This document shows, piece after piece, positions 37,144-48,149 of a stretch of 64,000 nucleotides of DNA. The notes beneath the pieces were generated by a model. It had not been told where the DNA came from. It worked only from the letters and a program-made list of their open reading frames with translations, and searched no databases. The position numbers were made by a program, and so were the translations under genes. The stretch comes from Eledone cirrhosa (taxonomy: Eukaryota). The stretch spans positions 24,304,001 to 24,368,000 of the forward strand of contig OZ024760.1 of the NCBI GenBank assembly GCA_964016885.1, written 5' to 3'. Positions within the stretch are counted from its first letter, which is position 1, and each line of letters starts with the position of its first letter.

Positions 37144-37348
37144 TATTAGAAAGTGAGGTTTTTTTTACAAAATGAAAAATAACCGAGGTGTCCTACACGA
37201 GTGGAAGTATAAAGAAAAAGGGATGAAATCGAAAATGCAACTGAAGTCTTATTTTTTAAAAAAATATATATATTTATTTGGTTCCTTTACCGGTTTCGCA
37301 GTTCTTCTGCTTTTCAAAAGGTGAGTTGAGATGGAGGGTCTGTGGTTT
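37144..37348 (-). mobile_element. PLE terminal repeat capping the left end of the 615-bp array
   Basis: Homologous to 14002-14135 and 62150-62350; begins at (TA)n. Confidence 0.8.
37284..37321 (-). ncRNA. Minimal hammerhead with U3-A8 core
   Basis: cctt TTGAAAA gcag aagaa ctgc GAAAC cg GTA aagg; palindromic ACCGGT stem III. Confidence 0.75.
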
Positions 37349-40300
37349 TAGGCTTTTATATTTATATGTGAGCTGATAGAGTACTGTCTAAGGATTTACA
37401 GAAACCCATGAAGCTAGATTTAACACCTTTCTAGTGGGTCCGGGTATGATTTTACATTCATTTAAATTATTGACGTATTGTTTTATTGATATTTTTTATC
37501 TGTTTGGCCCGAATCTTCCTTTATCGATTTTAAATCGTATGGTTGATTGTAGACTTGTTCTATATGTGACGGTATTTTAACGATAGTTATAGCTCTGATT
37601 CATCTGAATTATTGAGCCCTCTGCCGCTCATATCGGATTTCGTTTTTCGTTAACTCGTGCGCCGATTTTTCGATACTCGATCTTTCTAATATATTTAGCT
37701 CTGGACTTAGCTATCCACCAGTTAATTTTATTGCTCATATTTTGTCGATTCTATTGAGTGATGAATAGCTTTTGTTTTATTTTAACATGTCTATTGAGCA
37801 CTCTAATTCGATATGTGTATTTCCACATTCACTCGAATTATTTTCGCGGATATAGGGGTCATCTCCCTTGTCTAATGCCATGTGCGTTTTTCACCGCTAG
37901 TTGACTCCTTTGCCGCCAGGATAAAACTCGTTGACAACGTAAACTCCATTCCACTTATTCTAGTAGGCTTTTATATTTATATGTGAGCTGATAGAGTACT
38001 GTCTAAGGATTTACAGAAACCCATGAAGCTAGATTTAACACCTTTCTAGTGGGTCCGGGTATGATTTTACATTCATTTAAATTATTGACGTATTGTTTTA
38101 TTGATATTTTTTATCTGTTTGGCCCGAATCTTCCTTTATCGATTTTAAATCGTATGGTTGATTGTAGACTTGTTCTATATGTGACGGTATTTTAACGATA
38201 GTTATAGCTCTGATTCATCTGAATTATTGAGCCCTCTGCCGCTCATATCGGATTTCGTTTTTCGTTAACTCGTGCGCCGATTTTTCGATACTCGATCTTT
38301 CTAATATATTTAGCTCTGGACTTAGCTATCCACCAGTTAATTTTATTGCTCATATTTTGTCGATTCTATTGAGTGATGAATAGCTTTTGTTTTATTTTAA
38401 CATGTCTATTGAGCACTCTAATTCGATATGTGTATTTCCACATTCACTCGAATTATTTTCGCGGATATAGGGGTCATCTCCCTTGTCTAATGCCATGTGC
38501 GTTTTTCACCGCTAGTTGACTCCTTTGCCGCCAGGATAAAACTCGTTGACAACGTAAACTCCATTCCACTTATTCTAGTAGGCTTTTATATTTATATGTG
38601 AGCTGATAGAGTACTGTCTAAGGATTTACAGAAACCCATGAAGCTAGATTTAACACCTTTCTAGTGGGTCCGGGTATGATTTTACATTCATTTAAATTAT
38701 TGACGTATTGTTTTATTGATATTTTTTATCTGTTTGGCCCGAATCTTCCTTTATCGATTTTAAATCGTATGGTTGATTGTAGACTTGTTCTATATGTGAC
38801 GGTATTTTAACGATAGTTATAGCTCTGATTCATCTGAATTATTGAGCCCTCTGCCGCTCATATCGGATTTCGTTTTTCGTTAACTCGTGCGCCGATTTTT
38901 CGATACTCGATCTTTCTAATATATTTAGCTCTGGACTTAGCTATCCACCAGTTAATTTTATTGCTCATATTTTGTCGATTCTATTGAGTGATGAATAGCT
39001 TTTGTTTTATTTTAACATGTCTATTGAGCACTCTAATTCGATATGTGTATTTCCACATTCACTCGAATTATTTTCGCGGATATAGGGGTCATCTCCCTTG
39101 TCTAATGCCATGTGCGTTTTTCACCGCTAGTTGACTCCTTTGCCGCCAGGATAAAACTCGTTGACAACGTAAACTCCATTCCACTTATTCTAGTAGGCTT
39201 TTATATTTATATGTGAGCTGATAGAGTACTGTCTAAGGATTTACAGAAACCCATGAAGCTAGATTTAACACCTTTCTAGTGGGTCCGGGTATGATTTTAC
39301 ATTCATTTAAATTATTGACGTATTGTTTTATTGATATTTTTTATCTGTTTGGCCCGAATCTTCCTTTATCGATTTTAAATCGTATGGTTGATTGTAGACT
39401 TGTTCTATATGTGACGGTATTTTAACGATAGTTATAGCTCTGATTCATCTGAATTATTGAGCCCTCTGCCGCTCATATCGGATTTCGTTTTTCGTTAACT
39501 CGTGCGCCGATTTTTCGATACTCGATCTTTCTAATATATTTAGCTCTGGACTTAGCTATCCACCAGTTAATTTTATTGCTCATATTTTGTCGATTCTATT
39601 GAGTGATGAATAGCTTTTGTTTTATTTTAACATGTCTATTGAGCACTCTAATTCGATATGTGTATTTCCACATTCACTCGAATTATTTTCGCGGATATAG
39701 GGGTCATCTCCCTTGTCTAATGCCATGTGCGTTTTTCACCGCTAGTTGACTCCTTTGCCGCCAGGATAAAACTCGTTGACAACGTAAACTCCATTCCACT
39801 TATTCTAGTAGGCTTTTATATTTATATGTGAGCTGATAGAGTACTGTCTAAGGATTTACAGAAACCCATGAAGCTAGATTTAACACCTTTCTAGTGGGTC
39901 CGGGTATGATTTTACATTCATTTAAATTATTGACGTATTGTTTTATTGATATTTTTTATCTGTTTGGCCCGAATCTTCCTTTATCGATTTTAAATCGTAT
40001 GGTTGATTGTAGACTTGTTCTATATGTGACGGTATTTTAACGATAGTTATAGCTCTGATTCATCTGAATTATTGAGCCCTCTGCCGCTCATATCGGATTT
40101 CGTTTTTCGTTAACTCGTGCGCCGATTTTTCGATACTCGATCTTTCTAATATATTTAGCTCTGGACTTAGCTATCCACCAGTTAATTTTATTGCTCATAT
40201 TTTGTCGATTCTATTGAGTGATGAATAGCTTTTGTTTTATTTTAACATGTCTATTGAGCACTCTAATTCGATATGTGTATTTCCACATTCACTCGAATTA

Positions 40301-46300: not shown

Positions 46301-48149
46301 ATATTTAGCTCTGGACTTAGCTATCCACCAGTTAATTTTATTGCTCATATTTTGTCGATTCTATTGAGTGATGAATAGCTTTTGTTTTATTTTAACATGT
46401 CTATTGAGCACTCTAATTCGATATGTGTATTTCCACATTCACTCGAATTATTTTCGCGGATATAGGGGTCATCTCCCTTGTCTAATGCCATGTGCGTTTT
46501 TCACCGCTAGTTGACTCCTTTGCCGCCAGGATAAAACTCGTTGACAACGTAAACTCCATTCCACTTATTCTAGTAGGCTTTTATATTTATATGTGAGCTG
46601 ATAGAGTACTGTCTAAGGATTTACAGAAACCCATGAAGCTAGATTTAACACCTTTCTAGTGGGTCCGGGTATGATTTTACATTCATTTAAATTATTGACG
46701 TATTGTTTTATTGATATTTTTTATCTGTTTGGCCCGAATCTTCCTTTATCGATTTTAAATCGTATGGTTGATTGTAGACTTGTTCTATATGTGACGGTAT
46801 TTTAACGATAGTTATAGCTCTGATTCATCTGAATTATTGAGCCCTCTGCCGCTCATATCGGATTTCGTTTTTCGTTAACTCGTGCGCCGATTTTTCGATA
46901 CTCGATCTTTCTAATATATTTAGCTCTGGACTTAGCTATCCACCAGTTAATTTTATTGCTCATATTTTGTCGATTCTATTGAGTGATGAATAGCTTTTGT
47001 TTTATTTTAACATGTCTATTGAGCACTCTAATTCGATATGTGTATTTCCACATTCACTCGAATTATTTTCGCGGATATAGGGGTCATCTCCCTTGTCTAA
47101 TGCCATGTGCGTTTTTCACCGCTAGTTGACTCCTTTGCCGCCAGGATAAAACTCGTTGACAACGTAAACTCCATTCCACTTATTCTAGTAGGCTTTTATA
47201 TTTATATGTGAGCTGATAGAGTACTGTCTAAGGATTTACAGAAACCCATGAAGCTAGATTTAACACCTTTCTAGTGGGTCCGGGTATGATTTTACATTCA
47301 TTTAAATTATTGACGTATTGTTTTATTGATATTTTTTATCTGTTTGGCCCGAATCTTCCTTTATCGATTTTAAATCGTATGGTTGATTGTAGACTTGTTC
47401 TATATGTGACGGTATTTTAACGATAGTTATAGCTCTGATTCATCTGAATTATTGAGCCCTCTGCCGCTCATATCGGATTTCGTTTTTCGTTAACTCGTGC
47501 GCCGATTTTTCGATACTCGATCTTTCTAATATATTTAGCTCTGGACTTAGCTATCCACCAGTTAATTTTATTGCTCATATTTTGTCGATTCTATTGAGTG
47601 ATGAATAGCTTTTGTTTTATTTTAACATGTCTATTGAGCACTCTAATTCGATATGTGTATTTCCACATTCACTCGAATTATTTTCGCGGATATAGGGGTC
47701 ATCTCCCTTGTCTAATGCCATGTGCGTTTTTCACCGCTAGTTGACTCCTTTGCCGCCAGGATAAAACTCGTTGACAACGTAAACTCCATTCCACTTATTC
47801 TAGTAGGCTTTTATATTTATATGTGAGCTGATAGAGTACTGTCTAAGGATTTACAGAAACCCATGAAGCTAGATTTAACACCTTTCTAGTGGGTCCGGGT
47901 ATGATTTTACATTCATTTAAATTATTGACGTATTGTTTTATTGATATTTTTTATCTGTTTGGCCCGAATCTTCCTTTATCGATTTTAAATCGTATGGTTG
48001 ATTGTAGACTTGTTCTATATGTGACGGTATTTTAACGATAGTTATAGCTCTGATTCATCTGAATTATTGAGCCCTCTGCCGCTCATATCGGATTTCGTTT
48101 TTCGTTAACTCGTGCGCCGATTTTTCGATACTCGATCTTTCTAATATAT
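37349..48149 (+). mobile_element. Tandem array of ~17.5 x 615-bp units; putative retrozyme concatemer
   Basis: ggcttttata recurs at 37351, 37966, 38581 and onward; one hammerhead per period; ends in (TA)n. The periodicity is certain; the retrozyme call is inference. Confidence 0.8.
37922..38069 (+). ncRNA. Large type I hammerhead (first of 17 complete copies, +615 bp each); predicted cleavage after 38055
   Basis: Stem I actcg/cgggt (plus taaa/ttta); core TTGACAA; stem II gtaaa(c)tcc/ggatttac; GAAA; stem III ACCCA/TGGGT plus ctaga/tctag; GUC site. Confidence 0.72.

What the first reader, a model, noticed from the sequence alone, without database searches (positions are those of the whole stretch)
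37144..48149. Array is fused to an inverted Penelope terminal repeat and both ends share CTTTCTAATA
Seen: the order is (TA)n, a 205-bp PLE repeat on the minus strand with its own minimal HHR, the array on the plus strand, then (TA)n. The left end is TATTAGAAAG (37144-37153). The array stops mid-unit at CTTTCTAATA (48137-48146), its reverse complement, and merges into TA. This repeats the inverted-end geometry of the other PLE insertions here. Inference: one insertion by PLE machinery that primed on the 615-nt RNA at a site mimicking the PLE 3' end, while the other end copied true PLE RNA. That would be physical evidence for the proposed PLE-driven mobilisation of animal retrozymes and would name the helper family (other copies at 14002 and 62150).
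Basis: partly seen in the sequence, partly recalled or inferred. Interest (0 to 1): 0.82.

Follow-up and report, generated by a model that had tools for sequence, protein, structure and literature searches.

The report
Penelope-pasted repeat array beside Penelope fragment
An 11-kb run of near-identical non-coding repeats belongs to a family that carries the insertion marks of Penelope-type jumping genes at hundreds of TA microsatellites, so it was likely written by such an enzyme, but its join to a Penelope fragment here is more likely two insertions at one spot than one mixed event, and does not by itself name the helper.

Summary
The anatomy is confirmed. The 205-bp piece is the 3' end of an autonomous Neptune-type Penelope-like element (RT + GIY-YIG, found here), with a minimal U3-A8 hammerhead. 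The 615-nt family shows a target-primed footprint: 723 exact ends at one site followed by (TA)n, and variable 5' ends. It also has a minor second priming site, and its head-to-head insertions pair one end of each kind (7 of 7 resolved), as this PLE's do (26 of 31 pairs with exactly one outer end, none with two).

The fusion itself is weaker evidence. None of 150 other arrays is fused to this PLE. 40 of 150 lost the TA tract at the 5' joint, often joining older repeats. Arrays land beside or inside this PLE. A mixed event would pair two outer ends, against the rule. For one event: both parts are of the youngest class, which chance explains poorly (about 0.05 per genome). I give separate insertions 0.55 and one event 0.38.

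The shared 10-mer is not kept in sister families, and a rival helper exists. The unit's hammerhead failed my tests. The scan noted two-site priming before on other DNA.

The parts
37036..37146 (.). left (TA)n tract, target of the PLE arm's 3' end
37144..37348 (-). 5'-truncated 3' end (pseudo-LTR plus 64-nt tail) of a Neptune-type PLE, youngest haplotype, ending at the outer priming site CTTTCTAATA
37284..37321 (-). minimal type I hammerhead motif of the PLE: U3-A8 core, 4-bp stems I and II, palindromic CCGG stem III; cleavage predicted, not assayed
   Evidence: variant described in PMC4209133
37208..37218 (-). inner priming site of the PLE (TTTTCTTTATA), 64 nt before the outer one; not used as an end here
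37349..37350 (.). joint: one T shared by arm and unit; TA readable as unit or as target remnant
37349..48146 (+). array of 17 full 615-nt non-coding units plus 343 nt, one variant base; youngest subfamily of a dispersed family
37373..37445 (+). conserved structured motif in each unit (AGAAACCC...GGGTCCGGGT); hammerhead-like in part only
37583..37596 (+). inner (minor) priming site of the unit with TAGCTCT just 3' of it (first unit; repeats every 615)
37682..37702 (+). outer (major) priming site of the unit, CTTTCTAATATAT, with TAGCTCT just 3' of it (first unit; repeats every 615)
48137..48146 (+). outer priming site actually used: 3' end of the array
48144..48343 (.). right (TA)n tract
14001..14213 (.). 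older head-to-head insertion of the same PLE, outer end left and inner end right
62148..62359 (-). older solo copy of the same PLE end, 88% alike

Best explanation
The array is one of at least 723 insertions of a non-coding 615-nt element that end at one fixed site in (TA)n, likely written by target-primed reverse transcription by a Penelope-like (PLE) enzyme, and the 205-bp PLE end beside it likely came from a separate insertion into the same TA tract, with the TA between the two lost at the later 5' joint. Steps. Shown: fixed 3' end, variable 5' ends, TA targets, two priming sites, twin arms with unlike ends, frequent loss of TA at 5' joints, arrays landing beside and inside this PLE. Inferred: a GIY-YIG nick in (TA)n; pairing of the target end with AUAUAU inside the RNA; copying of 17.5 units in one pass, probably from a circle or multimer; microhomology joining at TA. 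Not determined: the order of the two insertions and which PLE supplied the enzyme (this family about 0.45, the parent of family Y about 0.3, another about 0.25; my estimates).
For: 0 of 150 scorable other arrays, including 78 of the youngest class, are fused to this PLE. 40 of 150 have no TA at the 5' joint. Of 23 such joints searched, 13 abut or cut into recognisable repeats of mixed kinds and orientation, several with 2-5 nt microhomology. 6 of 150 arrays abut this PLE across only TA or sit inside it (L114), two facing its truncated 5' end (L034, L285). Solo copies with the exact needed target, (TA)n then the same truncation point, exist: 10 of 29 hits, from a search biased to that junction. 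Twin insertions pair an inner with an outer end: PLE 25 of 29 with 2 outer-outer (biased set); 26 of 31 with exactly one outer-exact arm, none with two, 5 unresolved (first 100 matches on contig C1); arrays 7 of 7 resolved. The window would be outer plus outer. A rough count gives 1.3-2.6 such fusions of any age per genome by chance.
Against: The arm has no substitution against the youngest full-length copies outside a variable T/A run. That haplotype is 921 of 6,894 outer ends, and the array is also youngest class (92 of 723). The same rough count gives only 0.02-0.05 young-with-young fusions per genome (range 0.005-0.14). The partner is also the one family that shares the 13-mer with the unit. 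A one-base overlap is typical of twin joints too. If the inner/outer rule comes from two enzymes on one RNA, it need not bind an event with two RNAs.
Confidence: 0.55

Rival explanations
1. One mixed event: both ends of a break in (TA)n were primed, one on the 615-nt RNA and one on PLE RNA, and the two cDNAs were joined head to head. This would make this PLE the likely helper.
For: Both parts youngest class; chance expectation for that only about 0.02-0.05; shared 13-mer at the priming site; arrays do form twins (8 of 12 inner-site ends); a PLE protein extends both strands and is predicted to be a dimer (PMC11167929); outer-outer PLE twins exist at low rate (2 of 29).
Against: No second example in 150 arrays (upper 95% bound 2%); outer-plus-outer breaks the rule seen in both families; loss of TA and joining to whatever lies beside the target is common.
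Confidence: 0.38
2. The joint is secondary: a later deletion or recombination, or an assembly join across TA tracts, brought two neighbours together.
For: No read or contig bridging 37348/37349 was among those listed; the region is dense in TA tracts.
Against: The joint is clean, with a one-base overlap, and both parts are nearly unmutated; similar clean joints occur at many other arrays.
Confidence: 0.05
3. The array is an ordinary satellite grown in place by unequal exchange from a PLE-derived monomer, and is not retrotransposed as a multimer.
For: A few arrays have variants shared by neighbouring units (7 of 70 internal variants recur); bioRxiv 10.64898/2026.07.22.740005 discusses local amplification.
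Against: Fixed 3' end at hundreds of dispersed TA sites; multi-unit arms on both sides of twin joints; 22 of 48 arrays have no internal variant; no homology to this PLE beyond a 13-mer, E 0.13.
Confidence: 0.05

Closest known systems
Neptune-clade Penelope-like elements (PMC8557442, passages read; PMC12602865, passages read)
   Same: RT with C-terminal GIY-YIG, CX4CxxC linker, CCHH motif, upstream ORF1, (TA)n targets, inverted 5' copy, tail at one end only, minimal hammerhead near the 3' end.
   Different: Nothing essential for the 205-bp piece. Clade is assigned by motifs only, no tree. The tail is 64 nt against 30-40 nt in print.
Metazoan non-LTR retrozymes (PMC7229834, passages read; bioRxiv 10.64898/2026.07.22.740005, abstract to discussion read)
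   Same: Non-coding, low-GC, dispersed tandem units from monomer to at least 17-mer, coexisting with PLEs; PLE mobilisation proposed there from co-occurrence and pLTR similarity.
   Different: No type I hammerhead passes here; 615 nt against about 170-400 nt in the first paper (51-972 in the second); no homology to this PLE's pLTR; in what I read, neither paper reports fixed priming sites or twin arms.
Internal initiation at two adjacent sites by the anole Poseidon PLE (PMC11167929, main text read)
   Same: Two internal start sites that define the tail; both target strands extended; hammerhead cleavage not needed (copies here also run past the predicted cut).
   Different: There the start site is not homologous to the target; here both RNAs have 3-6 nt of TA-type homology at the site. 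Here the two sites are seen in a non-coding passenger, 108 nt apart.
Trans-mobilisation of host sequence between Penelope pLTRs in Adineta vaga (PMC3846280, passages read)
   Same: PLE machinery moving unrelated sequence; microhomology at 5' joints.
   Different: There cargo is framed by pLTRs on both sides; here 150 of 151 arrays have no pLTR of this family fused at the joint.

Membership tests
EN+ Penelope-like element (205-bp piece and parent) | RT plus C-terminal GIY-YIG in one ORF upstream of the repeat | tested here: met
   775-aa frame in L211, L214, L215, L216 (769 aa in L213); Pfam GIY-YIG E 3e-6 above cut-off, RVT_1 E 1e-6 just under cut-off
EN+ Penelope-like element (205-bp piece and parent) | pseudo-LTRs in tandem or inverted arrangement, tail at one end | tested here: met
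EN+ Penelope-like element (205-bp piece and parent) | minimal type I hammerhead motif in the pLTR | tested here: met
   descriptor scan, U3-A8 variant; Rfam gave no match; folding not better than shuffles, z -1.3
Neptune clade | CX2-5CxxC linker and CCHH motif; (TA)n targeting | tested here: met
   read from the translation against PMC8557442
Neptune clade | RT phylogeny groups with Neptune references | not tested
   no reference set was at hand
Non-LTR retrozyme (615-nt unit) | non-coding dispersed tandem repeats | tested here: met
Non-LTR retrozyme (615-nt unit) | type I hammerhead in every unit | tested here: not met
   no Rfam hammerhead match to E 10; descriptor scan negative on both strands; the CUGAUAG strand is absent in sister family C while AGAAACCC...GGGTCCGGGT is kept
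Non-LTR retrozyme (615-nt unit) | self-cleavage and circular RNA in tissue | not testable with these tools
   no RNA holder listed; contigs that go back 615 arise from any tandem array
Non-LTR retrozyme (615-nt unit) | homology to a PLE pLTR | tested here: inconclusive
   none to this PLE beyond a 13-mer; short motif likeness to family Y; other PLEs not fully sampled
PLE-mobilised non-autonomous element (works like) | fixed 3' end in the PLE's target, variable 5' truncation | tested here: met
   17 of 18 (the other ends at an assembly gap); 20 of 20 in sister family B; 116 different 5' positions in 150 arrays
PLE-mobilised non-autonomous element (works like) | head-to-head twins with one inner and one outer end | tested here: met
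   8 of 12 inner-site ends are twins, 7 of 7 resolved partners outer
Mixed-RNA twin insertion | recurs at other arrays | tested here: not met
   0 of 150
Mixed-RNA twin insertion | both parts equally young | tested here: met
Mixed-RNA twin insertion | both parts absent together from the empty allele | not testable with these tools
   right flank occurs once in the assembly; the runs of this organism are short contigs

The most novel reading that the evidence does not exclude
The locus is a fossil of one PLE integration that copied two different RNAs from the two ends of one break, directly linking an active Neptune-type PLE to a non-coding tandem passenger whose conserved core (AGAAACCC...GGGUCCGGGU) is not a standard hammerhead and may be an undescribed processing motif, with priming sites marked by a short signal 3' of the start.
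Probability: 0.3. Interest if true: 0.78.

Novelty: new variant of a known kind. Interest (0 to 1): 0.55.

Why it matters
PLE-driven spread of animal retrozyme-like repeats has been argued from co-occurrence and repeat similarity. The family-wide footprint here is more direct: same target, fixed internal start, two start sites, and twins with unlike ends. It comes with an intact young RT-endonuclease frame and a defined 615-nt RNA with mapped start sites, so the open question becomes testable in the published in vitro assay. The single fused locus adds little unless an empty allele shows one event. The result also warns that a shared end motif does not name a helper.

Tried and rejected
Rfam at gathering score on the whole window (0 matches) and to E 10 on 37100-38700 (5 chance matches).

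Hammerhead readings of the unit as type I or III: stem I fails or the cut triplet is wrong, and the core strand is not conserved. Hairpin, twister, pistol and HDV-like readings were compared from memory only and did not fit.

A search with arm plus unit as query returned only arrays, 18 of 408 candidates scored, so it says nothing about other fusions. No second haplotype of the locus in the assembly.

Sequencing runs: no RNA holder listed. Seven contig sets and one raw-read set were laid. Runs labelled with other organisms hold the unit only at low depth (up to about 45 summed word depth, against thousands and more in two runs of organism A). Raw reads of one such organism gave 2 partial reads in 12.8 million, so I did not take them as evidence of transfer between species. 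One run held the unit but not the arm; a part without cover proves nothing.

Dating family Y by twin-arm identity was confounded by alignments across the palindrome. A second PLE frame in L268 is not contiguous with family Y, so Y's parent was not found.

Eight arrays were dropped before counting (6 ran past the fetched stretch, 2 at gaps). 7 of the 92 youngest arrays were not fetched. The 17 non-TA joints of the second batch were screened for this PLE but not put through the repeat search.

Literature searches found no paper describing priming sites or twin arms for retrozyme arrays. The library lacks most subscription papers, and bioRxiv supplements were closed, which may bear on that claim.
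Full report
Observation. The window shows (TA)n at 37036-37146, a 205-bp repeat on the minus strand (37144-37348), an array on the plus strand (37349-48146) and (TA)n at 48144-48343. The array has 17 full 615-nt units and a 343-nt last unit, with one variant base in 10.8 kb. CTTTCTAATA ends both parts but is present in every unit. 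The parts overlap by one T, and the TA at 37349-37350 can be read as unit or as target remnant.

The 205-bp piece. Walking upstream through longer copies led to full-length elements of about 4.6 kb. They carry an ORF1 of about 400 aa and an overlapping 775-aa frame with RT (YLDD), a CX4CxxC linker and a GIY-YIG domain with the CCHH residues (Pfam; Atlas look-alikes with GIY-YIG). By the motifs in PMC8557442 (passages) this is Neptune-type; no tree was made. The piece holds a minimal hammerhead with the U3-A8 swap, a variant described for PLEs in PMC4209133 (passages). There are 6,894 exact outer ends followed by TA. In tandem copies the RNA reads on through CTTTCTAATATATACCCAC to ORF1, so priming is internal.

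The array family. 723 exact junctions join the same unit position to (TA)n, control 0. Of 18 long arrays chosen without regard to their ends, 17 stop there and one stops at a gap. A 627-nt sister family about 75% alike ends at the homologous place in 20 of 20 loci. 5' ends are scattered: 116 positions in 150 arrays, median length about 880 nt. 22 of 48 arrays with three or more full units have no internal variant. This fits one-pass copying of a circle or multimer (inference).

Two priming sites. Head-to-head insertions of the PLE pair an inner end (64 nt upstream) with an outer end in 25 of 29 cases, with 2 outer-outer and 2 unclear, in a set biased to outer ends. Among the first 100 youngest-type matches on contig C1, 31 pairs were found: 26 have exactly one outer-exact arm, none has two, and 5 have neither (binomial p 5e-5). 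This is the known tail at one end (PMC8557442; PMC3846280), explained by two start sites in PMC11167929 (main text). The array family has the same design. One twin turned up among the 150 arrays (L271). Its second end defines a minor site 108 nt upstream with 12 exact ends genome-wide. Eight of the 12 are twins, and all 7 whose partner end was in view use the major site. This is the best evidence here for PLE-type machinery, and it does not depend on the fused locus.

Is the fusion one event? Against. I scored 150 other arrays of 158 fetched: 103 join TA at the 5' end, 7 lie within 10 nt of TA, 40 do not, and none is fused to this PLE. That includes 78 scorable arrays of the 92 youngest; the upper 95% bound is 2%. 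Of 23 non-TA joints searched, 13 abut or cut into repeats seen elsewhere, in either orientation, among them SINE-like and MITE-like elements (labels by eye) and other PLE-like ends, several with short microhomology. Six arrays abut this PLE across TA or lie inside it. L114 sits in the PLE's internal TA stretch, and L034 and L285 face its truncated 5' end. Solo copies cut at the same point and flanked by TA exist (10 of 29 hits in a biased search). A mixed twin here would be outer plus outer. A rough product of these rates gives 1.3-2.6 fusions of any age per genome.

For one event. The arm has no substitution against the youngest full-length copies outside a variable T/A run. That haplotype is 921 of 6,894 ends, 13%, and the array is also in the youngest 13%. 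Young-with-young by chance comes to 0.02-0.05 per genome, range 0.005-0.14, assuming independence, which clustering of recent insertions would break. The partner is the one family sharing the 13-mer. The inner/outer rule may reflect two enzymes on one RNA and then would not bind two RNAs. Weighing these, I give separate insertions 0.55 and one event 0.38. The empty allele would decide it, but the locus is single in the assembly.

Does the motif name the helper? Not securely. The unit and this PLE share CTTTCTAATATAT at the outer site, 7 nt beyond the target-like part, and no other catalogued end shares more than 2. But sister families prime at the same place with TATTCTACTA (B) or TAATTTATA-like ends (C). 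The unit's inner site shares 7 nt with a different family's end, allowing a one-base shift. TAGCTCT occurs exactly twice in the unit, at the same distance 3' of both start sites. This PLE lacks it, while a hammerhead-bearing TA-targeting family Y has (T/A)AGCTCTG just 3' of its inner site. At least two further PLE frames occur in the fetched DNA, 51-54% and 27% identical. Y's parent was not found.

Is the unit a retrozyme? It behaves like one in layout but fails the ribozyme test. Rfam gives nothing, and a permissive descriptor finds no hammerhead on either strand. Across families A, B and C the block AGAAACCC...GGGTCCGGGT and a covarying stem are kept, while CUGAUAG is lost in C. The unit has no homology to this PLE beyond the 13-mer. 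I file it as a retrozyme-like, PLE-mobilised tandem element, not as a retrozyme.

Known and new. PLE mobilisation of animal retrozymes is proposed in PMC7229834 (passages) and bioRxiv 10.64898/2026.07.22.740005 (parts 1-3 of 5; supplements closed). In what I read, neither gives priming sites or twin geometry, and five searches found no such paper. The scan's own notes report two-site, twin-arm arrays in this genome and another. I had the twin result before reading them, and they are not independent evidence.

Verdict. The single-event reading and the naming of the helper are open and slightly disfavoured. Interest 0.55.

Noticed in passing
window 37590-37596 and 37696-37702 (every unit); family Y copies in L170, L263, L279, L059, L091, L035: TAGCTCT lies at the same distance 3' of both priming sites of the unit, and (T/A)AGCTCTG just 3' of the inner site of a separate hammerhead-bearing family, followed by a GAGCACTCT-like stretch; candidate start signal and rival helper.
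   Followed up: partly
window 37400-37445; L141, L158, L230: AGAAACCC...GGGTCCGGGT and a covarying stem are kept across three diverged sister families while the hammerhead-like CUGAUAG is not; possible undescribed RNA motif.
   Followed up: partly
L271, L304, L305, L307, L309, L312, L313, L314: Head-to-head twin insertions of the 615-nt array itself, with multi-unit arms.
   Followed up: yes
L114: An array inserted in the internal TA stretch of this PLE's 3' UTR.
   Followed up: yes
window 32292-32570 and L205: A distant relative (family D) of the unit's second half, starting at a TA tract.
   Followed up: no
L213 (reverse strand 2313-5989): ORF1 overlaps the RT frame by about 87 nt; a frameshift signal was not examined.
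   Followed up: no
L268 4336-5666 and L269 2557-3552 (minus strand): Two other PLE frames, about 52% and 27% identical to the parent; the second has a CUGAUGA hammerhead repeat downstream.
   Followed up: partly
L034, L093, L066 (flanks): Another tandem hammerhead-bearing repeat with identical units that itself hosts array insertions at an internal TA stretch.
   Followed up: no
window 33970-34498, 17149-17643, 10400-10624: Tandem repeats of period 56, 40 and 79 found by the repeat scan.
   Followed up: no
L047, L224, L269: Variants shared by neighbouring units inside single arrays, suggesting local exchange or a multimeric template in a minority.
   Followed up: partly
L220 6301-7356 (+): A 352-aa frame that looks Helitron-like by recall, beside a PLE copy.
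   Followed up: no
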